64,000 bases of DNA from IMG/VR virus record IMGVR_UViG_3300012973_000014, positions 22-64,021 of that record; one strand, given 5' to 3'. Numbering within the stretch: position 1 is the first letter of the stretch; every line of letters starts with the position of its first letter. The notes below the pieces were generated by a model, which was given only the letters and a program-made list of their open reading frames with translations, did not search any database and was not told the origin of the DNA. Of this stretch, positions 12,721-27,577 are shown one piece after another. The stretch comes from a virus. The translations under genes were made by a program, and so were the position numbers.

Positions 12721-12795
12721 ATAATTGGTTTTAACTTGCACCCGTAAACGGGAGCCACTCAGGCATACCGATATAACCTATAAATATATAATACA

Positions 12796-14200: not shown

Positions 14201-14488
14201 GTGGGGTACGAGAGTACTCTGCCCTTTCTAATTTATAAGAGTATGATAAACTTAAGAGAATTACGCAAGAGAGAGCCTGAGCGGTTCTTTATCTTGTGGC
14301 GGCAGCAGGACCCGATAGGATTCGGCTTAGCCAGAATACGTGCGAGTTACGAGGAAGTAACGAGTGCGAAGAAAAACGGAAGTGATGACTATGCCCGTAT
14401 GAGAGCGAATCATATTGCCCTTGTACGGAAGTGGACTGACCTGTGCGGTTTGGAGGCCAAGCAGGTACGAAAATATTATTATGTATAA
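14201..14488 (+). CDS. hypothetical protein
   Basis: 95-aa ORF, start uncertain. Confidence 0.3.
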   Translation: MGYESTLPFLIYKSMINLRELRKREPERFFILWRQQDPIGFGLARIRASYEEVTSAKKNGSDDYARMRANHIALVRKWTDLCGLEAKQVRKYYYV

Positions 14489-14544
14489 CCAGCCCGAATG
14501 CGGACGGGGGCGCACCTGAACGGGTGTATTGGGTCCGAACGATT

Positions 14545-14706
14545 ATGAGAAAAGAGATGCTACTTCTTGTAGCTGTGTTGTGGTCTGGCGAGGTATGCGA
14601 GGCTGCATTGTGTCCGAACGAGAATGTTGAGGATGCGAAGAACGCTGTTATTGTGAACTACTGCTTACCTTGTGGAGCAGTTAAAGAGTGGAGGATTGAA
14701 AAATGA
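14545..14706 (+). CDS. small secreted or membrane Cys-rich peptide (putative)
   Basis: In-frame Met of ORF 14443..14706. 'MRKEMLLLVAVLWSG' hydrophobic N-terminus, 4 Cys. Confidence 0.3.
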   Translation: MRKEMLLLVAVLWSGEVCEAALCPNENVEDAKNAVIVNYCLPCGAVKEWRIEK

Positions 14707-14789
14707 GACGCAGAGAAGTATTGGAGAACATTGCCCTAACTGTGATTTTGTTGGGCGGTATGTACTTAGTATGTTTGGCTGGGTACTTG

Positions 14790-14813
14790 TTTAACTAAAA
14801 ACGATGTATTATG
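14790..14813 (+). promoter_or_regulatory. class-1 conserved leader cassette TTAACtAAAAacgatGTATTATG
   Basis: One of about 20 copies of TTAACCAAwAA-N(4-9)-GTATTATG, placed immediately 5' of a small ORF start. Confidence 0.55.
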
Positions 14814-15020
14814 AGTGAATTTAAGACCCATGCCACCTTGTGCTTGAGTAATTTTGGTGGCGTTGCTATTGAACTATCTGATACGGGGGAGGCCGTCAGA
14901 TACAAATGGTATGATAATAAGCCGAGCCGTTGGTGCAAGGTGTATTACAACCTTAAGGGCGAACCGTATTTCAAGATGGCGGGCAAAAGGTACTACCTGA
15001 GCGAATTTATGCGGGTGTGA
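14811..15020 (+). CDS. hypothetical early protein
   Basis: 69 aa. Preceded by the class-1 cassette. Confidence 0.5.
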   Translation: MSEFKTHATLCLSNFGGVAIELSDTGEAVRYKWYDNKPSRWCKVYYNLKGEPYFKMAGKRYYLSEFMRV

Positions 15021-15084
15021 AGCCGAACCGGGCACGACTTGGGAGAGTTGTGTCTGGACGAATTAACTAAAACTGTATTGTATT

Positions 15085-15321
15085 ATGGAAATGATGAACA
15101 AATGGGTATACTTCTGTTTCAATTACCCGTACGACTTTATTGAGCAGATTTGGGGTGGAGAGTATATTTGCGACCACCTAAAGGGTAAATTTCAGATGTA
15201 CTATGACCTTGTAGGCAGTACCGGCGTGATGAACAAGTTTTATGCGAACTTGGACAAGACTAATCAAAGAAGGCTGCTGCAGTGGGTTATAGATAACTAT
15301 AACGATGAGCAGAAGTTGTAA
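15085..15321 (+). CDS. hypothetical early protein
   Basis: 78 aa. Class-1 cassette at 15062-15087. Confidence 0.5.
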   Translation: MEMMNKWVYFCFNYPYDFIEQIWGGEYICDHLKGKFQMYYDLVGSTGVMNKFYANLDKTNQRRLLQWVIDNYNDEQKL

Positions 15322-15384
15322 AGCAAGGAGGGTGCGTAGTGATACGTGCCCTTTTTCTATTTAACCAAAACGATAAGAAAAGTT

Positions 15385-15612
15385 ATGAAGACAATCAAAA
15401 TTGCTCCGAACCTTGATGAGATTGAGGTAGGGGCGAACTATGTTTCTACAGAGTGGAACGGTGGTATCAGGTACGAGGCTGAGGGATTGGACCGGTACAA
15501 GGAGGACTATCTGAAGCAGTGTTTCAGTACTGCGATAGCTATGAGTGGCCGACCATGGCAGCTTGAGGCTATATTGAACGACCATTTAGGATTGAAGGGA
15601 GTGGTGAAGTAG
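15385..15612 (+). CDS. hypothetical early protein
   Basis: Start placed at the Met after the cassette (TTAAC at 15361). ORF track 15346..15612. Confidence 0.45.
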   Translation: MKTIKIAPNLDEIEVGANYVSTEWNGGIRYEAEGLDRYKEDYLKQCFSTAIAMSGRPWQLEAILNDHLGLKGVVK

Positions 15613-15673
15613 AACGAGGAGCCGAGGCAGGGATGTCTTGGCTCTTGCAATTATTAACCAAAACGATTGTATT

Positions 15674-15937
15674 ATGCTAAACAGAAATGTAATTGAGGGC
15701 GTGGAAGGACTACGCGAACTAATTATGAGAGAGATTAGAGAACATTTGGCGGACGAATGTGAGGGCGGGCCGGTGGATATTGATATAAAGTTTAATTTGG
15801 ACGGTAACGCAGAATATTTGCGTAGTATTCAATTGGACGAGGATGGTGAAAATGTATTGGTAGTAACCGATACGGGAGTAAACGAGTTGTTCTTATATTC
15901 TCTTGATGAGATGATTAAAATTGTGGATGCGCTGTAG
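15674..15937 (+). CDS. hypothetical acidic early protein
   Basis: Start at the Met after the cassette (TTAAC at 15654). Acidic composition. Confidence 0.45.
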   Translation: MLNRNVIEGVEGLRELIMREIREHLADECEGGPVDIDIKFNLDGNAEYLRSIQLDEDGENVLVVTDTGVNELFLYSLDEMIKIVDAL

Positions 15938-15943
15938 TACTGG

Positions 15944-15971
15944 ACCCTACTTGGTGCGAATCAGGTAGGGT
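15944..15971 (+). terminator. conserved hairpin ACCCTAC-N14-GTAGGGT (copy 1)
   Basis: Identical 28-nt element repeated at 16282-16309. Followed by 'TAC..TTAACC'. Confidence 0.5.
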
Positions 15972-15999
15972 TACTATTATTAACCAAAAACGAACTATT

Positions 16000-16275
16000 A
16001 TGAAAGAGATTGAATTAGGTTCCGATGGGGGAACTATTGCTCTTATGGAATGGATTAGGGCGAACAATTACCCAGCCTTAGATACAACATTTTGTCGGTC
16101 AGCAAGCGGATACTATACTCTTATAGTATCTTCTTACGAACCGACCGAATTTGATTTAGACCTTTCCGATGGGGAGTGGTTTGAATGGAAGGGTATGAAG
16201 AGGCACTTTTGTGGTCTTCCACGAATGTGGGTGATGTATATTGACGGGTATTGGTATTACGCAACGCCTTATTGA
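16000..16275 (+). CDS. hypothetical early protein
   Basis: 91 aa. Cassette TTAAC at 15980. Confidence 0.5.
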   Translation: MKEIELGSDGGTIALMEWIRANNYPALDTTFCRSASGYYTLIVSSYEPTEFDLDLSDGEWFEWKGMKRHFCGLPRMWVMYIDGYWYYATPY

Positions 16276-16281
16276 TGAATG

Positions 16282-16309
16282 ACCCTACTTGGTGCGAATC
16301 AGGTAGGGT
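16282..16309 (+). terminator. conserved hairpin ACCCTAC-N14-GTAGGGT (copy 2)
   Basis: Identical to 15944-15971. Confidence 0.5.
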
Positions 16310-16315
16310 TACGAA

Positions 16316-16382
16316 TTTTTAACCAGCGGCGAACGGCTGTGCTGCGCTCCTACGGGAGTTTAATGGGCCGTGTTGTATTATG
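16316..16382 (+). promoter_or_regulatory. class-2 conserved leader (TTTTTAACCAGC...GCGC...TAATGGGCCG...TATTATG)
   Basis: One of 4 copies (16316, 20066, 26780, 28131) of a roughly 65-nt element with three conserved blocks. Confidence 0.5.
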
Positions 16383-17129
16383 ATGGAATATGTTAGACCT
16401 ACAGAGATGATGAGACTTACTGTTATCAATGGTAATGTTTGCGAAGGAACTATCTGCGGAGTTATCTTGACTATCGTGGAGGGTGATATTGTAATGGACG
16501 GTTACCGATTTAAGCACAATGGCAAAGGGATTATCTTGCCGGCGGATCAGGAGTTCTATTTTGATGAGAATACATTCAAGTTAGGGCAACCTATCATTCC
16601 TGACTGCTCTTGGAACGGCCTGTACAGCCTTGTTGGTTGGGACCGTCCGACCTTGTGGTACTACAAGAATGGTAAGGCAGAGCCATGGAAGTGGAAGAAT
16701 GAGCTTATTTCTTGGGAGATATTGCCTAACTATAACGCTAAGTTGTTGAACGGCTTTATCCCGGATGAGTTATTCGGCGAAGAGAAGGATGTCTATAGTT
16801 GGCACGACCTTATCGTACATAAGGATAACGGGGATATTGAGTTTAAGAAGGCTCCGCTATCTGTATTGCGATTGAATGATAATCAGCAGAAGCTGTTTGA
16901 ACAATTTAAGGCGTTACTTAAAGAGATGACCGATGCTGACATGTTGATTGTTGAAGATAGGGACCGCTGCGAACTGGCGGTATTGAACTGCAGTGAATAC
17001 AGAGTAGAGTTCGAGTGCGGCAACGATTTCGAACCGGCATTTCCGACAGATATGCAGGTTGTTATCCGTAATCATACCTATTATTACGGGGATGGTAGTG
17101 AGCGAATGAACATTTACAAGAAGAAGTAG
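16380..17129 (+). CDS. hypothetical protein
   Basis: 249 aa. Behind the class-2 leader. Confidence 0.55.
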   Translation: MMEYVRPTEMMRLTVINGNVCEGTICGVILTIVEGDIVMDGYRFKHNGKGIILPADQEFYFDENTFKLGQPIIPDCSWNGLYSLVGWDRPTLWYYKNGKAEPWKWKNELISWEILPNYNAKLLNGFIPDELFGEEKDVYSWHDLIVHKDNGDIEFKKAPLSVLRLNDNQQKLFEQFKALLKEMTDADMLIVEDRDRCELAVLNCSEYRVEFECGNDFEPAFPTDMQVVIRNHTYYYGDGSERMNIYKKK

Positions 17130-17193
17130 GTAAACGAACGGGGGCTGGTGCAGAGATGTGCCGGCCCTTACTATTAACCAATAAAATGATATT

Positions 17194-18093
17194 ATGAATT
17201 ACGAAGAGATGTACGAACGAGTTAAAGCTGAACTACAGACTGAGTACGACCTGTGCTATGTAGATTACCGGGACTCTTTTAGTGTCAAGATGGTAGCTGA
17301 ATGTCTTGAGCGAAAGAGTCTTCAACCTTTATGGGAGGAAGACTGCTACTGGGAACATCGGTCTGATGCAAGTTTTGATATTTTGGACAAGATAGGTCTG
17401 AAATTATATAAGGATTACGAGTGGCTTGAGTTTAAACAAGAGTCGTATTTGTACAATGACCTGCGTTACTTGATTCAGGAACGTGATGTAAGCGAACCAG
17501 AGAAAGACTGCTGGATGCAAACGAGGGTGGATGGCAGGGTGTTACTATTCAGTAATTATGACTGCTGGGTTCCGCCGTATGATGCCGGTGGGTTGGATGC
17601 TTTTCATGACTACCTTGAGACCGCTATGAGAGTACTATGCTTGAATCCTAAGAAAGTTAAGGAGGTTTGCAGTGAGTGGACGACTTGCAGAGGTAGGTGG
17701 CCGAATTACCATTGGAGAGATGGTAAAGAGGTGGTGAGTTATGAGGGATTTAGCAAGATATTGCGAGAGTCTTGTTCTTACGGCTTACTATGCTTTGTCG
17801 GCAAGATGAATATGAGCGAGTTATGGGATAAGATTGATAAGCAGGATGAGTTAGTTATCCCTAAGGGAACCACTGTAACTATGTTCAACCATTGGAATGG
17901 TGGTGGCAGCATGGATGATTGTAAAACTCTCAGAGATGTATCTTTGGGAGAAATGAACCGCAGAGCGCAAAAATGTCTTGTGGGAACCGAGTATGACTTC
18001 GTTGAGCTTGAGGTAGATGAGAGAGGTTGCTGTAGAGGATATAGTACCGGTGAGGTGTATGGTGGTAGCTTAAGCGATGATGACTTGTTTTAG
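17194..18093 (+). CDS. hypothetical protein
   Basis: 299 aa. Cassette TTAAC at 17174. Confidence 0.55.
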   Translation: MNYEEMYERVKAELQTEYDLCYVDYRDSFSVKMVAECLERKSLQPLWEEDCYWEHRSDASFDILDKIGLKLYKDYEWLEFKQESYLYNDLRYLIQERDVSEPEKDCWMQTRVDGRVLLFSNYDCWVPPYDAGGLDAFHDYLETAMRVLCLNPKKVKEVCSEWTTCRGRWPNYHWRDGKEVVSYEGFSKILRESCSYGLLCFVGKMNMSELWDKIDKQDELVIPKGTTVTMFNHWNGGGSMDDCKTLRDVSLGEMNRRAQKCLVGTEYDFVELEVDERGCCRGYSTGEVYGGSLSDDDLF

Positions 18094-18156
18094 TAAAACG
18101 CGGCTGTAATAGGGATATTGCAGTCGTGGCGAGTTATTAACCAAAATTGATGTATT

Positions 18157-18417
18157 ATGAAAATCAGAGAAATCAAAGCAAAGGACGGTGCAAGAGAGTG
18201 CCGTATTTTCGTGAGCAGTTGTGTAAAGAACGAGATTGATGATGGCCGTATAGTGAAGGGCTATTGGTATATTGTCAAAGGCGGACAGGTCGGACGATTT
18301 GTGCGAGAATATATCAAAAGCGGTAAGCAGCTGGATAACCTTGAGGATTATGATGTGTTCAATATCAACGGGAGCTGTGATACCAAGGAGTATTTTGCGG
18401 AATTGCTTGCTATGTAA
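18157..18417 (+). CDS. hypothetical early protein
   Basis: 86 aa. Cassette at 18137. Confidence 0.5.
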   Translation: MKIREIKAKDGARECRIFVSSCVKNEIDDGRIVKGYWYIVKGGQVGRFVREYIKSGKQLDNLEDYDVFNINGSCDTKEYFAELLAM

Positions 18418-18424
18418 CGAACGG

Positions 18425-18450
18425 GACCCCGGCAGAGATGTACGGGGTTT
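18425..18450 (+). terminator. intrinsic terminator hairpin with conserved loop GCAGAGATGT
   Basis: gaCCCCGgcagagatgtaCGGGGtttt. Confidence 0.55.
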
Positions 18451-18477
18451 TGCAATGTTTAACTAAAAGAATGTATT

Positions 18478-18735
18478 ATGACACACGAAGACCAACAGAG
18501 GTTTATTGAGCTTGCTAAAAAAGCGAGGTATAATGAGGCTATGGATGAGCTGACCACTTTTGTATGTAATCATGTCGGAGAGGGTTTTAGCGGGCCGGAC
18601 GCCGAGCGAATGGCGGACGACTTCGCACTTCTTGCGGCTTGGATATATGACCGGCTGAACGGCGAGAATCCAAGGGCAAGGAGGAGTGTAACGAACAAGA
18701 TTAGGAAGGCGCTGGGGTACATACCTATGCAGTAG
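18478..18735 (+). CDS. hypothetical early protein
   Basis: 85 aa. Cassette at 18459. Confidence 0.5.
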   Translation: MTHEDQQRFIELAKKARYNEAMDELTTFVCNHVGEGFSGPDAERMADDFALLAAWIYDRLNGENPRARRSVTNKIRKALGYIPMQ

Positions 18736-18799
18736 TGAACAAGGAGGATGCGGGGAGGCCGGCATCCTCTTGCTATTAACCAACTAAATTTTATGTATT

Positions 18800-19120
18800 A
18801 TGGAAAAAGAATGGACAGAAGCAGGTATTAAGTATGTATTTGAAACTATCAAGAAGTGGATTAAGACAAGAACCTTCAAGACTCTAAAGAATGGAACCAT
18901 AGGTGGCTCTATGACGATTAAACAAATGGAGAATCTTCTTGGCTTGCCTTACTCGAGTTCCGGTAGACATGCGGGATTATGGATATGTAACGACGTTGTA
19001 TACTTGGACCTTGAGTGTAAGTATCATATCGCTGGGTTCTGTATGGATGTACGAGGATGCGTCTATGCTGAATGTTTTGATAAAGATGAAAACGAGTTGT
19101 TTATACCTATAAATAAGTAA
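18800..19120 (+). CDS. hypothetical early protein
   Basis: 106 aa. Cassette upstream. Confidence 0.5.
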   Translation: MEKEWTEAGIKYVFETIKKWIKTRTFKTLKNGTIGGSMTIKQMENLLGLPYSSSGRHAGLWICNDVVYLDLECKYHIAGFCMDVRGCVYAECFDKDENELFIPINK

Positions 19121-19123
19121 GTT

Positions 19124-19318
19124 ATGACTATCAAGGAATTACGAAAAATGTTCTGGACTGAAGTAGCCACAGATGAGATGCGTAAGGAGTATCGCAGTAG
19201 GAAAACGCAGAATGACTATTCTACCGATGTACGATGTGCTTGGGTGGATTTTACTGACCATGCAGTAAAGAGCGGGTGGATAACACAGAAGCAGTGTGAT
19301 GAACGAGCCACCTTGTAA
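19124..19318 (+). CDS. hypothetical early protein
   Basis: 64 aa, 3-nt spacing after the previous gene. Confidence 0.4.
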   Translation: MTIKELRKMFWTEVATDEMRKEYRSRKTQNDYSTDVRCAWVDFTDHAVKSGWITQKQCDERATL

Positions 19319-19382
19319 CTATGCAGCGACCTCGCAGGGATGTGGGGTTGTTGGCGAGTATTAACTAATTAAAATATGTATT

Positions 19383-19604
19383 ATGAGACGACAAGTAGAG
19401 AAAATCCCTTCTTGGGCTATAAATGCAATTATTAATAATGATTGTACAGGGTTGGAATATAGTGAGATAGATTTAATACAGAGATGGTTTGAGGATACGG
19501 GCTATGACTATGTTTGTACTCCGGATTCGGACCCGTATTTTACTAATTACCCTGCATTTGGACTACCTTGTGATGTTTATGACTGCATCTGTGTAACCTT
19601 GTAG
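19383..19604 (+). CDS. hypothetical early protein (Cys-rich C-terminus)
   Basis: 73 aa. Cassette at 19361. Confidence 0.45.
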   Translation: MRRQVEKIPSWAINAIINNDCTGLEYSEIDLIQRWFEDTGYDYVCTPDSDPYFTNYPAFGLPCDVYDCICVTL

Positions 19605-19661
19605 AGCTGACTCAGCCCGAGTGGTATTGGGTTGGGTTACGAGTATTAACCAATAAAAATT

Positions 19662-20036
19662 ATGAAAATGGAACTAACATTAAAAGAGATGGCTCAGATT
19701 GAGAGAGCTAGAGTAGAGGCAGCTAAGAAAGAAGAGGAGAGAATCCGTGAAGAACGACTTAGGCTAAAGACGGAGGTTGTAGATGTGTTATTCAATGAGA
19801 TTAAGGATTTTATCTCTACTGTGAGAAAAAGTGATAATCCTAACAATCCATACCTTTTTATACCTATAAAAGGTTATCCTCTTGATGGGCTATGGGGGTA
19901 TACAATATACCCCGAGACAACGCTTGACTATTTCATTGTACATTATAGAGATAGTAGTTGTTCTTACGCCTTCGACTATGAGAAACGCATGAATAAAAGA
20001 GAGTTTGCGGAGAAGGTGCTAAGCTTGTATTTGTAG
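19662..20036 (+). CDS. hypothetical early protein
   Basis: 124 aa. Cassette upstream. Confidence 0.5.
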   Translation: MKMELTLKEMAQIERARVEAAKKEEERIREERLRLKTEVVDVLFNEIKDFISTVRKSDNPNNPYLFIPIKGYPLDGLWGYTIYPETTLDYFIVHYRDSSCSYAFDYEKRMNKREFAEKVLSLYL

Positions 20037-20134
20037 AACCAATCGGGCGTCAAACAGGCGCTCACTATTTTTAACCAGCACCGGACAGGGAGCGTGCGCA
20101 TCTTGTGGAAGATGTTAGAGGCCTGTTGAGTATT

Positions 20135-20791
20135 ATGAAAAAAGAGAGCGAGAAGCTATTGAACGAGATTTATGTAATGACCGAGGACCAGAAGATTAAG
20201 GACAAGGTGTTGCAAATTTTAAGGATTGAAGCGCCTCAACCGAACGGTAAGTTTGATTACTTCAAGTATGTAAGCAAGGAACTTGCGAGACCGATTATGA
20301 CTGGTGTATTCCATGATAATGGTTTTAAGGTTGCGAGCGATTGCCATATTATTGTAGCTATTAAGGACTACTACGATATAAGCGAATTGGAAGGCAAGGT
20401 CGTAGGCAAGGACGGCGCATTCATTGAGGGTAATTATCCAAAATGGAGGACTGTTATTCCTGACTTTACCTCTAAGATGCATGATTACAGGACTGAAACG
20501 GTTAAGATTGATTTTGATAAATGGGCCGAGTTCATGAAGGCATATAAGGCTGATAAGAAACTAAATTTAGAAAAGCGTTGGGTTAAGATTGGAGAACAGT
20601 ATTATAGTGTGGATTTGTTCAACTTGCTTACTATCGCCATGAGGAGGATAGGGACGGATGAGATTACTAATTCTTGGAGTCAGTATGGTGGTACTGCCGG
20701 CGTATGCAACGGGAGCGACGGTAGTATTGCACTCTTGATGCCAGCGATGAGAGCGTATGACATAGATGATGACCAGTTTTACGTATTCTAG
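20135..20791 (+). CDS. hypothetical protein
   Basis: Start at the Met after the class-2 leader 'GTATTATG'. ORF track 20105..20791. Confidence 0.5.
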   Translation: MKKESEKLLNEIYVMTEDQKIKDKVLQILRIEAPQPNGKFDYFKYVSKELARPIMTGVFHDNGFKVASDCHIIVAIKDYYDISELEGKVVGKDGAFIEGNYPKWRTVIPDFTSKMHDYRTETVKIDFDKWAEFMKAYKADKKLNLEKRWVKIGEQYYSVDLFNLLTIAMRRIGTDEITNSWSQYGGTAGVCNGSDGSIALLMPAMRAYDIDDDQFYVF

Positions 20792-20857
20792 CAGTATGAG
20801 GGGGCGTTATCCGAGAGGGTGGCGTCTCTGCTATGATTAACTAAAAAAAGAAGTATT

Positions 20858-21382
20858 ATGAAAAAATTTGAAGACCTAACAAGTAGTGAGTTGTGGAAGT
20901 TAAGAGATGAGATTACATTAAACTCTATCTATGTAGCTGACTATGAGAACTCTTTCCGTTTTAATGCAAAATGTATCTGTGCCTTTTTCGATGGTTATGT
21001 AGATTACCTCTTTGAACTAGCTGAGGAGGATAAATTCCCAGTTGACGATGAGTTTGCTGTATTTGATAAATACGACACAGAAGATAATCTTTATAACTGG
21101 TTTTGCTGCTATGACGATTTGTCTTGGGTTGAGAGCGATATCAAGGTATTCCGCTTCTCCCAGACTTACAAAAAGACCGTTACATGGCGCGAGTATTACG
21201 ATATTGAGGCTGAATCATTGGAGGAGGCTTTAGAAAAGGTTGAGGAGTGTGATGGCGACTTGGATGACTGCGAAGATGCTGAGTTTGTTGAGGCCGAACA
21301 GGAGGAGGAGAATGATGTCGATGCATATCAGAGACGAGACATTGATACCATTTATGACCCGGACGGAGAGGAGGTGGAGTAG
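20858..21382 (+). CDS. highly acidic protein, candidate DNA-mimic/anti-restriction
   Basis: 174 aa. C-terminal 70 aa very D/E-rich ('EECDGDLDDCEDAEFVEAEQEEENDVD'). Confidence 0.5.
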   Translation: MKKFEDLTSSELWKLRDEITLNSIYVADYENSFRFNAKCICAFFDGYVDYLFELAEEDKFPVDDEFAVFDKYDTEDNLYNWFCCYDDLSWVESDIKVFRFSQTYKKTVTWREYYDIEAESLEEALEKVEECDGDLDDCEDAEFVEAEQEEENDVDAYQRRDIDTIYDPDGEEVE

Positions 21383-21446
21383 AGCAAAGCAGGACCGAGC
21401 AGTGATGTTTGGTTCTGTGCGATGTTTAACCAAAAAGATGTGTATT

Positions 21447-21704
21447 ATGATAAAAAGAACTGAAATTAAGAAAGCTGTATCTGACTTGGAAGAGATGCTC
21501 TATTTCTATGTAAAAGAACAACTTGAAAAGAACGGTGATATTGATATCTCCGTACAACTTGTTAGTAATGATTTTGATTGTTACGAAGCACAAAGACTCT
21601 TCTTGAGTGAAATCGGCGAACCTATGGTAGCCACTGATATGGAGCACCTTGAGTTTTGGGGTCTTAACCTTGAGGATATGCTGGTGATTTTTGAGAATAT
21701 ATGA
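21447..21704 (+). CDS. hypothetical acidic early protein
   Basis: Start at the Met after the cassette (TTAAC at about 21432). Inside ORF 21240..21704. Confidence 0.45.
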   Translation: MIKRTEIKKAVSDLEEMLYFYVKEQLEKNGDIDISVQLVSNDFDCYEAQRLFLSEIGEPMVATDMEHLEFWGLNLEDMLVIFENI

Positions 21705-21705
21705 T

Positions 21706-21734
21706 AATTAACCCTTACTTGAGCGATTGAGTAA
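21706..21734 (+). terminator. hairpin ACCCTTACT-N10-AGTAAGGGT, same family as 15944/16282
   Basis: Followed by TACGAATTATTAACC. Confidence 0.5.
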
Positions 21735-21769
21735 GGGTTACGAATTATTAACCAAAAAAACGAATTATT

Positions 21770-22126
21770 ATGAGTATTAAAGAAAAAATTGAACAGCAGT
21801 TTATTGCAGATTTTGATTTGGATATCTTCCTGAAATTTGTAGAGGACCAATTAAGGAAGCATGGCAATGCCGAGATAGGATTGGAATTTGATAGGTCGAA
21901 TAAGTCATTAAAATCAGCTCCTTTCCAAACAGAGGGGTATTTTACTTCTAAGAAGTGGCCTACTTTTGAAAGAGCGCGCAAAAATTATTACTGGAACTCT
22001 AATTGCCAAATACCGCATCAGTTAGTCCCGTATGTCAAAAAGCAGTTAACGGAGCAAGGACTTAAAACTTCGTGCAAAGGGGCGTGCGGTTACGATACCT
22101 ATGACATTCTTGTTGTGACTATGTAG
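21770..22126 (+). CDS. hypothetical early protein
   Basis: 118 aa. Cassette upstream. Confidence 0.5.
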   Translation: MSIKEKIEQQFIADFDLDIFLKFVEDQLRKHGNAEIGLEFDRSNKSLKSAPFQTEGYFTSKKWPTFERARKNYYWNSNCQIPHQLVPYVKKQLTEQGLKTSCKGACGYDTYDILVVTM

Positions 22127-22224
22127 CGAACTGGCAGGGATGATGCGAATTATCTCTGCTTACCAATTATTAACCAACCCGAACGCGTGAGGGTGCTCCG
22201 AGAGGAGTTATGGCGCGTATAATT

Positions 22225-22530
22225 ATGAAAAATAGTCAAGATTTGTACGCTATGTACAATGTTTTGGTTTCTGATGCCAAGGAGAGTATTAGGGACATCT
22301 TGAGTAAGCAACCTAAACAGAGGGTTATAGTGGATATGTGGGTTGTTGCGGATTATCACGAAGGAGCTGAAAGGGAAGCTGTTACCGGTATTCAACTAAG
22401 GGATGGTATGATAGAGCTTATCCTTCCCGACGGCGACATTGTGAGAAGCAAAAACGTATTGAACAGCGAATGGCTCTACATCTTAGAATGCGTTGAGTAT
22501 GAACTAGCTGAGAAGGAGGGAAAGTTATGA
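22225..22530 (+). CDS. hypothetical early protein
   Basis: Start after 'TATAATTATG'. ORF track 22210..22530. Confidence 0.45.
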   Translation: MKNSQDLYAMYNVLVSDAKESIRDILSKQPKQRVIVDMWVVADYHEGAEREAVTGIQLRDGMIELILPDGDIVRSKNVLNSEWLYILECVEYELAEKEGKL

Positions 22531-22853
22531 GCAAAGTAACATGTCTCTGCTATGGGCAGGAGCGGACTTTCAAGAGCAGGAAGGCTGCTATAGACTTTTA
22601 CGCTGAGGCGATGTTTGCAACAGAGGGAGCTGAATCGGAGAGGTATAGAACCATCTTGAGTAAACTGTACCGGGGCGATAAGGTGTGTAGTGATGAGGAA
22701 ATCAGTTGGGCTGGATTAGCTGCGGCTGGAGAGGAGTTTTACCAGCAAGTAGAGGAACGGGGAGTTAAGTTTCGTGATGATGAGCACGAGCAGGAAGCTC
22801 TGTTTGACTTTATCGAGCAGGTAAAGATGTACGGAAGAGCGGAGGTGAGGTAG
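22527..22853 (+). CDS. hypothetical early protein
   Basis: ATGA overlap with the upstream gene. 108 aa. Confidence 0.45.
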   Translation: MSKVTCLCYGQERTFKSRKAAIDFYAEAMFATEGAESERYRTILSKLYRGDKVCSDEEISWAGLAAAGEEFYQQVEERGVKFRDDEHEQEALFDFIEQVKMYGRAEVR

Positions 22854-22921
22854 CGTATGCGGAGTCGAGTAGAGATATTCGGCTCTGTACTATGTTTAAC
22901 CAATTAAAAAATGAATGTATT

Positions 22922-23251
22922 ATGAAGAAATGTGAATCATGGAGCGATGTAGAGCAAATTATAGCTCCTTTTGTCAAGAGTTATTTTAGCATGGACGACG
23001 AGGTTGTACCGACATTCAAGGATAGTCTTGCACGGGTAGGAAATTCCTTCACTGGATATGACAGGGTAGTCTCGTTTCAGACTAAAGAGGGTGTTATCGG
23101 CGAGGTTAGGAAACCGGTAACGAATGGCTATGGAGAGGCTTATAGAGATAGATGTAAAGATGGGTTTGTGCTGGGACTTCTTGGTAAGAACAATAAATGG
23201 ATATATGGCCCTGTAGAGCACATTAAGAGTACGATTGAGCTTGCTAAGTAG
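22922..23251 (+). CDS. hypothetical early protein
   Basis: Start at the Met after the cassette. ORF track 22892..23251. Confidence 0.45.
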   Translation: MKKCESWSDVEQIIAPFVKSYFSMDDEVVPTFKDSLARVGNSFTGYDRVVSFQTKEGVIGEVRKPVTNGYGEAYRDRCKDGFVLGLLGKNNKWIYGPVEHIKSTIELAK

Positions 23252-23314
23252 TATTACTCCCTTGAACTCTGACAGGTTCTTGGGGGACGAATAACCAATA
23301 AAAAATTAAGTATT

Positions 23315-23605
23315 ATGATAAAATATGTATGGGTAGATGACCGAATTACTGGTAAACATACCTATGAAGTTGATATTGAGGATTTGCAGGACCTTTTAGA
23401 TTCTCTTAATGCCGTCATATATTATAAAAAGGTTTTTTATGAGAGGCTGTCTGATGTTCCACTAGAGGTTGAGCGTGAGCAAATCTGTAGCTATGGGCTT
23501 CCTACTAATCTTTATATCACAATGGCTCCTACTATAACAATAGTACCAAAGGGTACTACTATAAGGAAATGGTACATTTTTGAGGAGTTTGTGTTTCCTA
23601 GATAA
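23315..23605 (+). CDS. hypothetical early protein
   Basis: 96 aa. Cassette variant ATAACCAAT. Confidence 0.45.
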   Translation: MIKYVWVDDRITGKHTYEVDIEDLQDLLDSLNAVIYYKKVFYERLSDVPLEVEREQICSYGLPTNLYITMAPTITIVPKGTTIRKWYIFEEFVFPR

Positions 23606-23714
23606 GATATAGCCCGCCTGAGCTTTATCAGGCTTGTTTGTTTGTTTGTTTTCATAGCCCCGTACCGCTGGGAAGTGTTGCGGGGTACAATTATTAACCA
23701 TTAAAAGAAGTATT

Positions 23715-24011
23715 ATGGAAAGACCTAAATTTAAAGAAGAGCGGATTATGTTTTATACTAAAGCTGAGTTGAATAGAGAACTCTTGTGGTGGGAATGTCG
23801 ACTCTCTAATCTTAAATCTGGGATAAAAGATTATCGAGACCAGAAAGACTGGGAAGTTAATCAGGCTATAATGATGGCTAAGCATGCCATACAAAACACA
23901 CGGGCTTTGTTAAACTTAAATTTAGATGAGTATTATTTGCAAGGTTCAAAGGTGGTAGCTATTACCACTATAGCAGAGAAGCGTGATGACTTAAAGTATT
24001 ACTTCACATGA
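23715..24011 (+). CDS. hypothetical early protein
   Basis: 98 aa. Cassette upstream. Confidence 0.5.
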   Translation: MERPKFKEERIMFYTKAELNRELLWWECRLSNLKSGIKDYRDQKDWEVNQAIMMAKHAIQNTRALLNLNLDEYYLQGSKVVAITTIAEKRDDLKYYFT

Positions 24012-24054
24012 AGTGGGGTAATGCACTGATTGTTAACTAATTAAAAAAAGTATT

Positions 24055-24333
24055 ATGAATAGAAAACCATGCGTGTTTATAAAGGAGACACAAGAAAACC
24101 CTACAGCTGCGGTGTTGGTTGTACGGTTTGATGATTTAGACAAGATAGGTCATACTAGATTTGAAATAGATGGTAAGTTACACATTCTTACCCATCCTAC
24201 TACTGCCGGTATAGAGTCTATCCTACTCAGGAATATCTTGGCTATTAAAGGATATTCTATTATAGATGAGAGAGATTTTGTGTGGGAAGATGGAGCCATA
24301 GATGTTGAATTTGTAACTGATATGCCTTATTGA
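24055..24333 (+). CDS. hypothetical early protein
   Basis: 92 aa. Cassette upstream. Confidence 0.5.
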   Translation: MNRKPCVFIKETQENPTAAVLVVRFDDLDKIGHTRFEIDGKLHILTHPTTAGIESILLRNILAIKGYSIIDERDFVWEDGAIDVEFVTDMPY

Positions 24334-24349
24334 TAAAGGAGGACGAGTA

Positions 24350-24700
24350 ATGGATAAACAATTTTTAGACTTAAAGACGCGGATAGAAAACATGTCCACT
24401 GAGAAGTTCGTGCAGTGGATGAACGAGGTGTTCTTGAATCGTAATGACCACGGGTATTACTGCAAAATTCACGAGGTAGATGATGATAAATATTGGTCGG
24501 ACTATATGCGACCTATAGGGGCTGAGATTGCCATTGGCATCGCGAATGGTGTCGAATGGGGCCGTTTTAATCGCGGAGAGAGATATGTTATGTATGTAGA
24601 ATATGATGATAATTTCATCACTTTTGACACCAAGGAGCAGTTCTTTAACGAGATTTGGCCCTTGGATGATATTATTTATGAAATGAATTGTAGGAGGTAA
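24350..24700 (+). CDS. hypothetical protein
   Basis: 116 aa. Shine-Dalgarno-like AAGGAGGA upstream instead of the cassette. Confidence 0.5.
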   Translation: MDKQFLDLKTRIENMSTEKFVQWMNEVFLNRNDHGYYCKIHEVDDDKYWSDYMRPIGAEIAIGIANGVEWGRFNRGERYVMYVEYDDNFITFDTKEQFFNEIWPLDDIIYEMNCRR

Positions 24701-24779
24701 TATGAACAGAGCCGGATGCATACAGTTTACCAAGGGGTATCAGGATGATATCTTCTTGGATATAGGTAGTTAGGTCCAG

Positions 24780-25190
24780 ATGAAATCATTTAAGCTGGGC
24801 CTTGCTTTTGATATCCTGAATAACTTGCCTCTGCAGGCATATAACTTTGATTACGGGTATCATACAGACTTGTCTCCTTGCGCCCTATTCTTCAATCCTA
24901 TGATGCTGTACCAAGCCATTCAAACAGTAATGACGAGTGTGCAGATACGTTCAGGTGTTGGGGAAGACGGCGTTCTGGTCCGTAACAAGAAGGAACTTAC
25001 CAAGGCGATAATTGCCGGACACAAGGTGATATACACCGTCAAGCCTAAGTGTAAATCTCTGGCAGAACAGGCTGAGTTTTATATGGAATTATGCGAGTAT
25101 ACGGCGGTGATTGAACGGTATATATACAAGGTGGCAAGGAAGAGGATGTTCAAGATGTTTAAAGTTATGATGAGTGGGTCGGAGCAGTGA
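24780..25190 (+). CDS. hypothetical protein
   Basis: 136-aa ORF. Confidence 0.45.
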   Translation: MKSFKLGLAFDILNNLPLQAYNFDYGYHTDLSPCALFFNPMMLYQAIQTVMTSVQIRSGVGEDGVLVRNKKELTKAIIAGHKVIYTVKPKCKSLAEQAEFYMELCEYTAVIERYIYKVARKRMFKMFKVMMSGSEQ

Positions 25191-25229
25191 TGTTCCTTCC
25201 CTTCCAATTTTTAACTAAAATGAAGTATT

Positions 25230-25424
25230 ATGGAAACGAAAGAATGCAAGCAATGCCGAATAACACGCCCTTTGAGCGACTTTTGTATAAGGTTTGGTGT
25301 TATATCCAACACATGTAAACATTGTGGAAAAGCGTTAAGGAGGGAACGAAAGGAGTTTATTAAATCTATTATGCCAGCTGTGCTAAAATTAAGGGAGGAC
25401 TTAAGAAATGCCATCAGGAGATAG
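25230..25424 (+). CDS. small zinc-ribbon protein (paralog of 27213..27527 N-terminus)
   Basis: 'METKECKQC...CKHC'. Cassette upstream. Confidence 0.45.
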   Translation: METKECKQCRITRPLSDFCIRFGVISNTCKHCGKALRRERKEFIKSIMPAVLKLREDLRNAIRR

Positions 25425-26475
25425 ACCTGCAAAGAAGGTTGTTTGCGCTATTTGTGGCGTAGAGTTTTGGACTACGGGTACTAATACAAGGTACTGCGAT
25501 AATATCGCTTGTCGTAATGAAGCATCCCGGATTTCTGCTAAGAGGTGTTCTGAGAAGAAAGACGCAGATAAGATGAAGTACAAAGATTTGTATGACAAGG
25601 TTATAAAGGACGGTATAGACTGGGATTTACCAGCGACTTTGGATAAAATTACTGAAGCGATTAAACTCGTAGACGATTTATCTAAAATGATTAATGGTAA
25701 GTATTTAAACATGTCTATTACAGAACTAAAAGAAGCTTTGGTCATCTATAAGACAAAAAGATGTAATAGCGGTACATTAGAAACGGGTATTCCTGAAGTA
25801 GATGATTATGTAAGAGATAATATAATGGGTTTTATCGACTCATTATTTGATTACCAACGCTATTCATTGAAAGATATGGTTGATTGTTGCAGCCGTTTAT
25901 ATTTAGACAATACCCCTAACTATACATTATCAGAGGAAGATGCTAATTCTGGTAAGCCTTATAAATACTATGAGATTGTATATTTGAGCGAATTAGGTAA
26001 ATACCGTTTTCGTCAACTCAACGCTGGCGGACTTATAGAGGACTATTCGGGTAAGTGTTGTAATAAAGAGTGCCCATATAATTTTGAACCTTCTTATAAA
26101 TATTCATGGGAAAGGGGTCGTGGATGTTCTCTCATCTGCAACCAAGATGGCTCCCGCAGGTCATCTATTACACAAGGACGTTGTTCTTTATTTATAAGGT
26201 GTGAGTATAGAAGGCTGGTGGATGATAAGCAGAGAGCTATGAAAGCCTGTAGATATCATATTGCGAGAAGGTATTTAAAATACACCGTAGATTTTGAAAT
26301 TGTGAGAGCTTTACGAGAGTTATTCTTTTTAGAAAAGCTTCCTAATAAGAATGTTTCATCTCGTATGGTAAAACTGATTAGAGAAAATTGTGAAACTTTT
26401 ATAAAGAAAGATTTTTATTCTAAAAATAAGAAACTCATTGATAGATATAATTACTTACACAAAAAAACATTCTGA
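25408..26475 (+). CDS. hypothetical protein with N-terminal zinc ribbon
   Basis: 355 aa. 'CAICGVEF...YCDNIACRNE'. AAGGGAGGA upstream. Confidence 0.5.
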   Translation: MPSGDRPAKKVVCAICGVEFWTTGTNTRYCDNIACRNEASRISAKRCSEKKDADKMKYKDLYDKVIKDGIDWDLPATLDKITEAIKLVDDLSKMINGKYLNMSITELKEALVIYKTKRCNSGTLETGIPEVDDYVRDNIMGFIDSLFDYQRYSLKDMVDCCSRLYLDNTPNYTLSEEDANSGKPYKYYEIVYLSELGKYRFRQLNAGGLIEDYSGKCCNKECPYNFEPSYKYSWERGRGCSLICNQDGSRRSSITQGRCSLFIRCEYRRLVDDKQRAMKACRYHIARRYLKYTVDFEIVRALRELFFLEKLPNKNVSSRMVKLIRENCETFIKKDFYSKNKKLIDRYNYLHKKTF

Positions 26476-26478
26476 ATT

Positions 26479-26739
26479 ATGAAACCAGTAAACGAAAAAT
26501 CACTATTACATCACTTGTTTGAGCAGATGGATAAATTAGACAAGGGTGAAATTACTACCGAGCGAGCTGTTGCTCATGCTAAATTAGCAAATGAAGCCAC
26601 GAAATTATTCAAGCAGGAAATGGACCGAGCAAGGTTGTTTATGGATTTGCAAGACCATGCAGCCAAGACTGGTCAAATGATTGGGCTTAGAGAGTTAGCG
26701 TCAAAAGGATTTGATGATACGACCAAGGTGATTGGGTAG
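26479..26739 (+). CDS. hypothetical protein
   Basis: 86-aa ORF. Confidence 0.45.
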   Translation: MKPVNEKSLLHHLFEQMDKLDKGEITTERAVAHAKLANEATKLFKQEMDRARLFMDLQDHAAKTGQMIGLRELASKGFDDTTKVIG

Positions 26740-26835
26740 AACAAAGAGACTGGGACCTAATCGTCCCTTTCTCTGCCATTTTTAACCAGCACGGAGCCGG
26801 TGTAGTGCGCCTAAATAGGTAATGGCCGGATGATT

Positions 26836-26979
26836 TATGAGACAACAATTTGTGCAGTGCAGGTATCGCTACCAAGCATTAAAGGAATGCCCTTGGAGTA
26901 GTAGGGTTGCAAAAGTGAACGGTGGCTATATGTGCTTTGAATCAATTAGTGATTATTATACATGGAGGAATCAGAAATG
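26836..26979 (+). CDS. hypothetical small protein (47 aa)
   Basis: Read by hand behind the class-2 leader at 26780. Below the ORF-track size cutoff. Confidence 0.3.
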
Positions 26980-27210
26980 AACAAACAAAGAAGAAAGCGT
27001 TTAGAAGATGTTGTGTCCCGCCTTGAGGAATGCATGTCCGACTTGGAGTTTATCAAGGAAGAGGAGCAGGAGGCTTATGATAACCTACCTGAGTCAATCC
27101 AGTACTCAGAAAGGGGCGAGTTAATGCAGGAGATTGCTGATGATATAGATTATGCCATTAGCGATTTGGACCAAGTAATCGATAGTGTTAATGAAATAAT
27201 AAATAAATAG
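26962..27210 (+). CDS. small acidic helical protein
   Basis: 82 aa, D/E-rich. Confidence 0.45.
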   Translation: MEESEMNKQRRKRLEDVVSRLEECMSDLEFIKEEEQEAYDNLPESIQYSERGELMQEIADDIDYAISDLDQVIDSVNEIINK

Positions 27211-27212
27211 TT

Positions 27213-27527: not shown

Positions 27528-27577
27528 CAAGGGCTGGTGCGACGGCTTACAAGTATTAACCTTAAAAGATAAATGAT

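What the first reader, a model, noticed from the sequence alone, without database searches (positions are those of the whole stretch)
15619..25200. Recurrent GCAGWGATGT element, usually in the loop of a terminator-like hairpin 17-30 nt upstream of the TTAACC cassette
GCAGGGATGT at 15627, GCAGAGATGT at 17151, GCAGAGATGT at 18431, GCAGGGATGT at 19334, GCAGTGATGT at about 21395, GCAGGGATGA at 22129, GTAGAGATAT at about 22870 and GCAGTGATGT at about 25183. Looser versions, AGGGATATTG at 18110 and GGAGGATGCGGGG at 18745, also occur. Several sit as loops of G/C stems followed by T-runs (for example CCCCGgcagagatgtaCGGGGtttt at 18425-18450). A conserved loop sequence argues for sequence-specific recognition by an antiterminator, an RNase or a phage sigma-like factor. 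Alternatively it may be a -35-like upstream promoter element spaced about 17 nt from TTAACC.
Basis: seen in the sequence. Interest (0 to 1): 0.6.

Follow-up and report, generated by a model that had tools for sequence, protein, structure and literature searches.

The report
GNRA-capped hairpins in phage gene cassettes
The repeated GCAGNGATGT word is the top of a very stable RNA hairpin (three base pairs plus a GNRA four-base loop) that sits in a uniform ~63-base linker repeated between some 25 small genes of a gut Bacteroidales phage; the linker, not the word, is the interesting unit.

Summary
The motif is real. GCAGNGATGT occurs 7 times against 0.32 expected, and 6 copies lie on the + strand in intergenic spacers, 24-27 nt before TTAAC. 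It is not a loop sequence. It is the top three base pairs (G.U, C-G, A-U) plus a GNGA tetraloop of a 13-bp hairpin.

About 25 such hairpins lie between 14.2 and 28.1 kb, and 61 in five related metagenomic phages. All 13 stem pairs covary. G.U pairs outnumber A.C 66 to 3, so the structure forms in + sense RNA. 50 of 61 loops are GNRA, and the closing pairs vary.

Each hairpin belongs to a fixed linker: stop codon, ~5 nt, hairpin, TRCNATKW, TTAACY, A-rich stretch, (G)TATTATG start codon. The hairpins lack U-tracts and the linkers lack the Bacteroidetes promoter consensus, although canonical promoters and terminators occur elsewhere in the same genome. Homology breakpoints between relatives fall at the linkers.

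Best reading: an RNA-level punctuation hairpin within a PeSL-like mobile regulatory cassette. A sequence-specific loop-binding factor and a -35 element are both poorly supported. Whether TTAACC marks a transcription start or a processing site cannot be settled without 5'/3'-end mapping.

The parts
14197..28196 (+). Array of about 25 repeated intergenic cassettes separating small ORFs. Each cassette is: stop codon, ~5 nt, 13-bp GNRA hairpin, TRCNATKW, TTAACY, A-rich stretch, (G)TATTATG start codon.
15617..15646 (+). Hairpin with GCA[GGGA]TGT apex (exact decamer at 15627).
   Evidence: -21.1 kcal/mol, z -5.4
17140..17169 (+). Hairpin with GCA[GAGA]TGT apex (decamer at 17150).
   Evidence: -22.1 kcal/mol, z -5.2
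18422..18452 (+). Hairpin with GCA[GAGA]TGT apex and one bulged A (decamer at 18432).
19324..19353 (+). Hairpin with GCA[GGGA]TGT apex (decamer at 19334).
21389..21418 (+). Hairpin with GCA[GTGA]TGT apex (decamer at 21399).
25172..25204 (+). Hairpin with GCA[GTGA]TGT apex and an internal loop in the lower stem (decamer at 25184).
15325..15356 (+). Hairpin with variant apex GTA[GTGA]TAC.
18099..18128 (+). Hairpin with variant apex ATA[GGGA]TAT.
22858..22889 (+). Hairpin with variant apex GTA[GAGA]TAT.
22133..22160 (+). Hairpin whose loop is GCGA.
18743..18770 (+). Hairpin whose stem is GAGGATGC/GCATCCTC.
15943..15972 (+). Family member without the decamer: GGT[GCGA]ATC apex. A near-identical copy lies at 16280-16311.
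20800..20829 (+). Family member without the decamer: TCC[GAGA]GGG apex, 6 G.U pairs.
21709..21740 (+). Family member without the decamer: TGA[GCGA]TTG apex.
23657..23686 (+). Family member with GCT[GGGA]AGT apex. It is preceded by a separate canonical U-tract terminator-like hairpin at 23616-23633.
28099..28128 (+). Last family member of the array, GGC[GAAA]GCT apex.
15647..15676 (+). Representative 3' half of a cassette: GCAATTA-TTAACC-AAAACGATT-GTATTATG. The ATG is the start codon of the next ORF.
16319..16382 (+). Long-leader cassette. A pseudoknotted ~40-nt element (P1, PK, embedded hairpin P3) is inserted between TTAACCA and GTATTATG. Other copies: 20071-20137, 22170-22227, 26782-26839, 28136-28196.
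14748..14777 (+). The only intergenic match to the canonical Bacteroidetes promoter (TTG-N19-TATGTTTG) within the array. It lies just upstream of the cassette at 14791 and is not conserved in relative L129.

Best explanation
GCAGNGATGT is the apex of a strand-specific RNA hairpin: three base pairs plus a GNRA tetraloop, on a 13-bp stem of about -19 kcal/mol. The hairpin is one fixed component of a ~63-nt linker cassette repeated between the small ORFs of the phage's accessory (probably early) gene array.

Committed mechanism.
- The array is transcribed as read-through + strand RNA.
- The hairpins have no U-tract, so they do not terminate efficiently.
- Instead they punctuate the RNA. After cleavage in the conserved single-stranded spacer that follows (UURCNAUKW-UUAACY), each hairpin acts as a 3'-to-5' exonuclease barrier for the upstream cistron.
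- Each hairpin also keeps the standardised translation start of the next cistron (A-rich stretch, GUAUU-AUG) free of upstream pairing.

Why the decamer recurs. GNRA is selected as a stabilising cap, and cassette copies are paralogues kept alike by descent and by recombination between cassettes. Those cassettes also serve as the junctions for gene-cassette shuffling, as PeSLs do in T4-like phages.

Shown: the structure, its strand specificity, GNRA enrichment, the fixed cassette geometry, the absence of canonical promoter and terminator features, and breakpoints at the cassettes.
Inferred: read-through transcription, cleavage in the spacer, and the barrier and insulator roles.
For: Structure.
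- 20 window copies: 91.9% of cells paired against 49.6% in shuffles, and 45-51% when the register is slid by one column. All 13 pairs show compensatory changes.
- 62 copies in five genomes: 96% paired.
- z-scores run from -3.1 to -7.4.

RNA sense.
- 66 G.U against 3 A.C among 260 stem cells.
- Mean dG is -18.9 kcal/mol in sense and -8.4 in antisense.

Loops.
- 50 of 61 are GNRA, against 4.6% expected from base composition.

Geometry.
- Loop to TTAAC is 24-25 nt in 44 of 61 modules.
- Stop codon to TTAAC is 39-45 nt in 19 of 25 window cassettes.

Not canonical terminators.
- Most modules have 3-4 T in the 8 nt after the stem, and a C three nt after the stem is invariant across the 20 aligned window copies.
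- U-tract terminators with 7-11-bp stems and non-GNRA loops exist at 32771, 37819, 38795 and 41626.

Not canonical promoters.
- TTG-N17-22-TAnnTTTG occurs at other intergenic sites (-11763, -40813, -51476, +28620 and others) but in none of the cassettes.
- The related Parabacteroides phage PF672P1 uses such promoters in its equivalent array and has no cassette.

RNA processing as a theme.
- A twister-like ribozyme, conserved with covariation, lies just upstream on the same strand.
- Sequence directly after TTAACCA forms a covarying pseudoknot, so it is transcribed.

Shuffling.
- 12 of 17 (L128) and 12 of 21 (L129) homology end-points lie within 45 nt of a TTAAC, against 17% expected. P is 1e-6 and 3e-5.
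Against: - No RNA 5' or 3' ends are available, so read-through, cleavage and barrier function are all inference.
- A canonical U-tract terminator at 23616-23633 directly precedes one cassette. That suggests transcription may need to restart at cassettes.
- TTAACC stays with the hairpin, and regulatory leaders are inserted just downstream of it. This is also what a transcription start site would look like.
- No upstream promoter for a >13-kb read-through transcript was identified. The single canonical promoter match at 14748 is not conserved in L129.
- No candidate endoribonuclease was found among the ORFs scanned.
Confidence: 0.45

Rival explanations
1. A true PeSL-type terminator-promoter cassette. 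The hairpin is a (partial) transcription terminator or attenuator for the upstream gene. TRCNATKW-TTAACY is a non-canonical promoter or initiator, recognised by host RNA polymerase with an unidentified host or phage factor, so each cassette starts a new transcript near TTAACCA.
For: - The architecture matches PeSLs: stop codon, stem-loop with G.T pairs, conserved element, start codon, in an ORFan-rich region, with indel breakpoints at the cassettes (PMC2839356 read).
- A contiguous ~18-nt conserved block lies next to the hairpin.
- Pseudoknot leaders begin right after TTAACCA, as expected just downstream of a start site.
- A canonical terminator at 23616 is followed by a cassette.
- The relative PF672P1 has ordinary promoters where this clade has cassettes.
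Against: - There is no match to the Bacteroidetes TTG/TAnnTTTG consensus or to a sigma-70-type promoter in correct geometry.
- No sigma factor or RNA polymerase gene was detected, and no DFDxD motif is present.
- The hairpins lack the U-tract that this genome's evident terminators have.
Confidence: 0.3
2. The conserved apex is read sequence-specifically by a protein, such as an N/boxB-like antiterminator, a loop-measuring RNase or a translational regulator, that acts on all array genes.
For: - GNGA is strongly preferred over GNAA in the window: 17 of 18 GNRA loops.
- The GCA...TGT top recurs even where the lower stems differ, for example w15654 against L128:834.
- Stem length is uniform at 13 bp and the distance to TTAACC is fixed, which would suit a ruler-type enzyme.
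Against: - The closing pair and the two pairs below it vary with compensation across the family.
- Relatives use GGAA, GAAA and GTAA, and occasionally non-GNRA loops.
- GNRA is explained by thermodynamic stability alone.
- nut-type sites occur once or twice per genome, not at every gene (my knowledge of lambda N/boxB).
- No candidate RNA-binding protein was identified.
Confidence: 0.1
3. The motif is a -35-like DNA promoter element about 17 bp upstream of a TTAACC -10 box.
For: - Spacing is fixed: the motif ends 17 nt before TTAACC in 6 of 8 copies.
Against: - Only a subset of cassettes carries the decamer, and the others have unrelated sequence at that position.
- The stems covary and are 25% G.U, which is an RNA signature and not that of a duplex-DNA site.
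- A -10 box at TTAACC would place the start inside the conserved P1 helix of the leader.
- It does not resemble the host consensus.
Confidence: 0.03
4. A DNA-level element. The inverted repeats act as cruciforms or recombinase sites that drive cassette exchange, for example through the conserved serine recombinase encoded at 28722-29498, with no RNA role.
For: - Breakpoints fall at the cassettes.
- A resolvase-family gene is conserved at the end of the array in all three long relatives.
Against: - The G.U against A.C asymmetry of 66 to 3 means the complementary strand cannot form the structure, and the duplex repeat is imperfect.
- Breakpoints cluster at TTAAC and its flanks rather than in the stems.
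- No dimeric, palindromic recombinase-type site surrounds TTAACC (read directly from the sequence).
- Ordinary homologous recombination between ~60-nt repeats suffices.
Confidence: 0.05

Closest known systems
PeSLs (promoter-early stem-loops) of T4-type phages RB49, phi1, PST and nt-1 (Arbiol et al. 2010, PMC2839356; Comeau et al. 2014, PMC4122927)
   Same: - Short composite intergenic cassettes repeated many times in ORFan-rich plastic regions.
[quoted passage not shown]
- They contain a stable stem-loop with G.T pairs.
- Indels and replacements between close relatives have their junctions at the cassettes.
   Different: - PeSLs carry a recognisable host sigma-70 consensus promoter and a Shine-Dalgarno sequence. 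These cassettes carry neither the Bacteroidetes nor the sigma-70 consensus.
- PeSL stem-loops sit at five different positions relative to the promoter and often have polyG/polyC stems. Here the position is fixed (24-25 nt), the stem is 13 bp and the cap is GNRA.
- The host phylum and phage type (a tape-measure-bearing tailed phage of Bacteroidales) are different.
- About a quarter of these cassettes carry an extra pseudoknot leader.
Intercistronic C(UUCG)G hairpins of phage T4 and tetraloop-capped hairpins in bacterial terminators (Tuerk et al. 1988; from my own knowledge, not re-read here)
   Same: Extra-stable tetraloop hairpins are enriched between phage cistrons. The loop is conserved because of its stability, not because a factor reads it.
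   Different: - The loop class here is GNRA (mostly GNGA), not UNCG.
- Stem length and spacing to the next gene's signals are uniform.
RNase III processing hairpins between T7 early genes, and REP elements as 3' exonuclease barriers in E. coli operons (my knowledge)
   Same: Hairpins lie between cistrons of a read-through transcript and end up as protective 3' stem-loops of the upstream message.
   Different: - T7 sites are about 20 bp or longer, with internal loops; these stems are 13 bp.
- No cleavage data exist here.
- REP elements are chromosomal and spread by a RAYT transposase.
Lambda/P22 boxB-N antitermination hairpins (my knowledge)
   Same: A short hairpin whose loop adopts a GNRA(-like) fold.
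   Different: - boxB sites occur once or twice per genome, next to boxA, on 5-bp stems.
- Here there are about 25 copies, one per gene, on 13-bp stems.
- No N-like protein has been identified.
Intrinsic (Rho-independent) terminators
   Same: A G+C-rich hairpin immediately downstream of a stop codon, on the coding strand.
   Different: - There is no U-tract.
- The conserved sequence directly after the stem is RC-N-AU.
- The genome's evident terminators look different.

Membership tests
GNRA-tetraloop hairpin | Four-base loop G-N-R-A closed by a standard pair on a helical stem | tested here: met
   All 6 exact decamers and 3 variants fold with a GNGA loop. 50 of 61 family members in five genomes have GNRA loops. 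All 16 perfect stems of 12 bp or more with a tetraloop in the window have GNGA loops.
Intrinsic (Rho-independent) terminator | Stable G+C-rich hairpin downstream of a stop codon on the transcribed sense strand | tested here: met
   Stop codon to TTAAC is 39-45 nt in 19 of 25 cassettes, so the hairpin starts about 5 nt after the stop. Mean dG is about -19 kcal/mol, and the structure is sense-strand specific.
Intrinsic (Rho-independent) terminator | Run of U directly after the stem | tested here: not met
   Mode is 3-4 T in the 8 nt after the stem. A C three nt after the stem is invariant in the 20 aligned window copies. Of the six exact GCAGNGATGT hairpins none passes the loose T-tail scan; only the GTAGAGATAT variant does. 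Canonical terminators elsewhere in the window have 5-7 T.
Intrinsic (Rho-independent) terminator | RNA 3' ends at the hairpin in vivo or in vitro | not testable with these tools
   No transcript data are available.
PeSL-type regulatory cassette | Composite motif repeated in intergenic spacers of an ORFan-rich region, spanning stop codon to start codon and containing a stem-loop | tested here: met
   About 25 copies in the window and 61 in five genomes. Most flanking ORFs have no Pfam or PHROG family.
PeSL-type regulatory cassette | Host-consensus early promoter inside the cassette | tested here: not met
   No TTG-N17-22-TAnnTTTG lies within cassettes, although it is present elsewhere. Sigma-70-like matches are not enriched: 24 found against 33 expected.
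PeSL-type regulatory cassette | Insertions, deletions and replacements between close relatives bounded by the cassettes | tested here: met
   12 of 17 and 12 of 21 homology end-points lie within 45 nt of a TTAAC, against 17% expected. Single-gene indels are flanked by cassettes: the L128 177-aa gene, and the window 85-aa gene at 21447-21704.
PeSL-type regulatory cassette | Promoter and terminator activity in reporters; excised mini-circles | not testable with these tools
   Experimental.
Sigma-70-family -35 element | Conserved duplex-DNA hexamer at fixed distance from a -10 element upstream of the start site | tested here: not met
   The sequence at that position is conserved only in a subset and otherwise covaries as a stem. 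TTAACC cannot be a -10 box, because the leader's P1 helix starts right after TTAACCA.
boxB/N-type antitermination site | One or two nut sites per genome, consisting of boxA plus a short GNRA-like hairpin, with a cognate arginine-rich N protein | tested here: not met
   There are about 25 copies, one per gene, on 13-bp stems. boxA and an N protein were not specifically searched for.
RNase III site (T7 early type) | About two helical turns (~20 bp) of double-stranded RNA | tested here: not met
   Stems are 12-14 bp.
Any Rfam family | Covariance-model match | tested here: not met
   No hit to the hairpins or cassettes at gathering threshold or at E <= 5.

The most novel reading that the evidence does not exclude
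The hairpin, its 7-8-nt spacer and UUAACC together form a dedicated punctuation signal. It would be read by a still unidentified factor: either a structure-plus-sequence-specific endoribonuclease, or a non-sigma-A transcription initiation system. Together with the twister-like ribozyme upstream and the pseudoknot leaders, it would make up an RNA-processing-based expression programme for a mobile gene-cassette array. That organisation has not been described for Bacteroidetes phages.
Probability: 0.25. Interest if true: 0.75.

Novelty: new variant of a known kind. Interest (0 to 1): 0.45.

Why it matters
The decamer itself is ordinary: it is a GNRA-capped stem top.

The unit it belongs to is less ordinary. 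It is a uniform linker, restricted to one clade, that standardises the boundary between about 25 fast-shuffling accessory genes of a gut Bacteroidales phage. It uses none of the host's known promoter or terminator signals.

If the cassette is a promoter, it defines an unknown recognition system in a phylum whose phage transcription is barely studied. If it is a processing site, it is a natural 'insulator plus standard start' design for polycistronic RNA.

Either way, the cassettes mark where new genes enter these phages, extending the PeSL concept beyond T4-like phages.

Tried and rejected
- crAss-like phage with a virion RNA polymerase. I suspected this at first because of the 2534-aa ORF and read the phi14:2 paper. 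I rejected it: the ORF is a fibre or tail protein with an S74 chaperone end, there is a tape-measure protein, and no DFDxD motif exists anywhere in six frames.
- Megablast of the region against phage genomes found no hit.
- DNA pattern scans of IMG/VR for the cassette and for motif plus cassette gave only single chance hits.
- Close-relative protein scans of IMG/VR with the 299-aa protein and with the primase found nothing.
- Distant homologues of the 299-aa protein (45% identity or less; L130-135, L139, and 80 metagenome loci totalling 1.1 Mb) lack the cassette. They served as negative controls.
- Parabacteroides phage PF672P1, the closest cultured relative by capsid protein at 53% identity, lacks the cassette.
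- A search for a sigma factor, RNA polymerase or RNase among about 35 ORFs with Pfam and PHROGs found nothing.
- Other readings of the cassette were checked by eye against consensus sequences recalled from memory and did not fit: a sigma-54 promoter, an ECF-type promoter, leaderless promoter geometry, integron attC core sites (GTTRRRY), invertase hix/gix-like sites, and T4 gene-60-type bypassing.
- One DNA search failed on pattern syntax and one script failed on a typing error; both were repeated.

Full report
Context. The window is essentially a whole ~64-kb tailed-phage genome assembled from gut-type metagenomes.
- It encodes a tape-measure protein (51491-56377, - strand), a 2534-aa fibre-like protein, a major head protein, a D5/P4-type primase, a helicase and a methyltransferase.
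- An identical 299-aa protein is found on contigs of up to 64,021 nt.
- G+C content is 41.7%.
- The closest cultured relatives by capsid protein (53% identity) are Parabacteroides phages PF672P1 and PF672P2.
- Canonical Bacteroidetes promoters (TTG-N17-22-TAnnTTTG) stand in front of several operons. The host is therefore almost certainly a Bacteroidales bacterium.
- No phage RNA polymerase or sigma factor was detected.

The observation.
- GCAGNGATGT occurs 7 times against 0.32 expected, and no shuffle out of 100 reaches 7.
- Six copies are on the + strand at 15627, 17150, 18432, 19334, 21399 and 25184. All are intergenic and lie 24-27 nt before a TTAAC. The seventh is on the - strand inside the giant ORF and is probably chance.
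Its variants exist at 22869, 22134, 18111 and 18743.

What the motif is. In every copy the outer bases pair (G.U, C-G, A-U) and only GNGA is unpaired.
- The decamer is therefore the apex of a 13-bp hairpin with a GNRA-class tetraloop, not a 10-nt loop. Free energies run from -14 to -22 kcal/mol and z-scores from -3.1 to -7.4.
- A scan of the whole window for perfect stems with 4-nt loops shows that all 16 stems of 12 bp or more lie on the + strand between 14210 and 22872. All have 12-14 bp and all have GNGA loops: GAGA 5, GGGA 5, GCGA 4, GTGA 2.
- The decamer hairpins are thus a sub-family of a larger, very uniform hairpin family.

The hairpin is a real, strand-specific RNA structure.
- In an alignment of 20 window copies, 91.9% of stem cells pair, against 49.6% in shuffles and 45-51% when the register is slid by one column. 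All 13 pairs show changes on both sides.
- A covariance model built from these copies finds 61 genuine copies, all on the + strand. They occur only in the window and in four related metagenomic phages whose 299-aa protein is 51-81% identical (L128, L129, L136, L138).
- Across those copies 96% of cells pair.
- The model finds nothing in more distant relatives or in phage PF672P1.
- Stems contain 66 G.U but only 3 A.C among 260 cells. The sense strand folds at -18.9 kcal/mol on average and the antisense at -8.4. The structure therefore exists in + sense RNA and not as a symmetric DNA site.
- The + strand of the array is C-poor (15% C, 26% G), which fits the heavy use of G.U pairs.

What is conserved in the hairpin.
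- Only the loop's G, G/A and A are conserved. 50 of 61 loops are GNRA: GAGA 16, GTGA 11, GCGA 9, GGGA 6, GGAA 5, GAAA 2, GTAA 1. Composition alone predicts 4.6%.
- The closing pair is A-U, U-A, C-G or G-C, and the next pair is C-G or U-A.
- This pattern points to selection for a stable cap. It does not point to a factor that reads ten bases.
- The GCA...TGT top shared by about ten copies is best explained by paralogy and exchange between cassette copies.

The cassette. The hairpin is one element of a fixed linker. Its order is: stop codon (TAG in 15 of 25), ~5 nt (often AACGR), the 30-nt hairpin, TRCNATKW, TTAACY, an A-rich stretch, and (G)TATTATG, whose ATG is the start codon of the next ORF.
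- Loop to TTAAC is 24-25 nt in 44 of 61 copies.
- Stop to TTAAC is 39-45 nt in 19 of 25 window cassettes.
- TTAAC to ATG falls into two classes: 12-26 nt, and about 55-64 nt.
- In the long class a ~40-nt element is inserted directly after TTAACCA. It forms a pseudoknot (P1, PK and an embedded hairpin). In 14 copies there are nine distinct helices for each stem, with 100% pairing to the copy's own partner against 54-55% to partners from other copies.
- Hairpin and TTAACC therefore stay together, while the translation start is a separable element. Sequence immediately after TTAACCA is functional RNA.

Neither a canonical terminator nor a canonical promoter.
- Most hairpins are followed by UURC-N-AU rather than a U-tract, with 3-4 T in 8 nt. 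Of the six exact decamer hairpins none passes a loose terminator scan; only the GTAGAGATAT variant does.
- The same genome has ordinary terminators at operon ends, with 7-11-bp stems, 5-6-nt non-GNRA loops and 5-7 T.
- No cassette contains the TTG/TAnnTTTG consensus. Sigma-70-type matches are not enriched.
- PF672P1, by contrast, has repeated ...TTG-N19-TAtcTTTG promoters in its equivalent array and no cassettes.
- TTAACC cannot be a -10 box with the decamer as -35. A start 5-9 nt downstream would fall inside the conserved P1 helix, and the '-35' position covaries as a stem.

Cassettes are recombination junctions.
- Alignment of the window with L128 and L129 gives blocks whose ends fall at the cassettes. 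Examples are 16281 (hairpin start), 18463, 20071 (exactly at TTAACC), 20829/20864, 21436, 21739, 24029 and 25215.
- 12 of 17 and 12 of 21 end-points lie within 45 nt of a TTAAC, against 17% expected. P is 1e-6 and 3e-5.
- Single genes are present or absent between two cassettes.
- This is the behaviour described for PeSLs, the promoter-early stem-loop cassettes of T4-type phages (PMC2839356; PMC4122927).

Mechanism. The following is shown:
- the structure and its RNA sense;
- the GNRA selection;
- the fixed geometry;
- the lack of canonical transcription signals;
- the junction role of the cassettes.

What the hairpin does is inferred. I commit, at about 0.45, to a punctuation role on read-through RNA.
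- The hairpin does not terminate, because it has no U-tract.
- The conserved single-stranded spacer and UUAACC are a cleavage or recognition site.
- The hairpin then protects the 3' end of the upstream cistron and shields the standard start region of the next one.

Support for an RNA-processing logic comes from a twister-like self-cleaving ribozyme 29 nt after the first + strand ORF. It is conserved with compensatory changes in relative L129.

The main rival, at about 0.3, is a true terminator-promoter cassette with a non-canonical promoter. It is favoured by the PeSL analogy, by the canonical terminator at 23616 that directly precedes one cassette, and by the leader insertion point.

A loop-reading protein is given about 0.1, a DNA-level site about 0.05 and a -35 element about 0.03.

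Novelty and verdict. The decamer is an ordinary GNRA hairpin apex.

The cassette family is a new, clade-restricted variant of PeSL-like regulatory cassettes, found in a Bacteroidales phage. Its unusual features are the uniform 13-bp GNRA hairpin, the absence of host-consensus signals and the optional pseudoknot leader. No Rfam family matches it. Interest is moderate. 5'/3'-end mapping would decide between the two leading mechanisms.

Noticed in passing
window 13391-13452 (+); L129 1637-1695 (+): There is a sub-threshold match to the type-P1 twister self-cleaving ribozyme: 40.6 and 44.1 bits against a gathering score of 67.2, with E about 5e-6 and 2e-6. It lies 29 nt after the stop of the first rightward ORF. 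P1 and P4 differ between the two phages by compensatory changes. A UUGC/GCAA pairing replaces the consensus CCC/GGG tertiary pairing in both.
   Followed up: partly
window 16319-16382, 20071-20137, 22170-22227, 26782-26839, 28136-28196, probably 14485-14548; copies in L128, L129, L136: A conserved ~40-nt pseudoknotted 5' leader is inserted between TTAACCA and (G)TATTATG in about a quarter of the cassettes. It has P1 and PK helices of 4-5 bp, an embedded hairpin P3 and a UAAUGG-like junction. Its 14 copies show nine different helix sequences and perfect covariation. It matches no Rfam family. It could be an operator for a regulator or a small riboswitch-like element.
   Followed up: partly
window 38728-38819 (+): A canonical Bacteroidetes promoter (TTG-N19-TATATTTG) is followed about 40 nt later by a strong U-tract terminator (CCCCGCCGTTTTCGCAACGGTGGGG-TTTTT). 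This may be a small non-coding RNA gene.
   Followed up: no
window 14.2-28.2 kb: Upstream stop codons of the cassettes are TAG in 15 of 25 cases, and intergenic length is nearly constant at about 61-66 nt. Genes without a cassette inside the array (starts at 22527, 24350 and about 24713) are preceded by AGGAGG-like sequences instead.
   Followed up: partly
window 11700-12790 and 13450-14200: There are two long non-coding stretches between the leftward replication operon and the rightward array. The first is AT-rich with GGTAGT-type repeats and may be an origin of replication. The second is G+C-rich with a direct repeat GGGGGCGGGTATCTTATACCC at about 13490 and 13520, and several CCCGTT/AACGGG words.
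   Followed up: no
window 4418-4493 (+): Rfam reports a tRNA match (42 bits, above gathering threshold) that ARAGORN does not report.
   Followed up: no
window 28722-29498 (+); L128 12038-12796; L129 12859-13602: A small serine recombinase (resolvase N-terminal domain) with its own conserved canonical promoter sits at the end of the cassette array in all three long relatives. It is preceded by a pyrimidine-dimer excision (Pyr_excise) gene.
   Followed up: no
L130 20124-21428; L132 1352-2584; L134 2429-3508: Distant phages that carry homologues of the 299-aa protein encode a Cas12a/Cpf1-like protein and IS605 OrfB/Cas12f-like (TnpB) proteins next to that gene.
   Followed up: no
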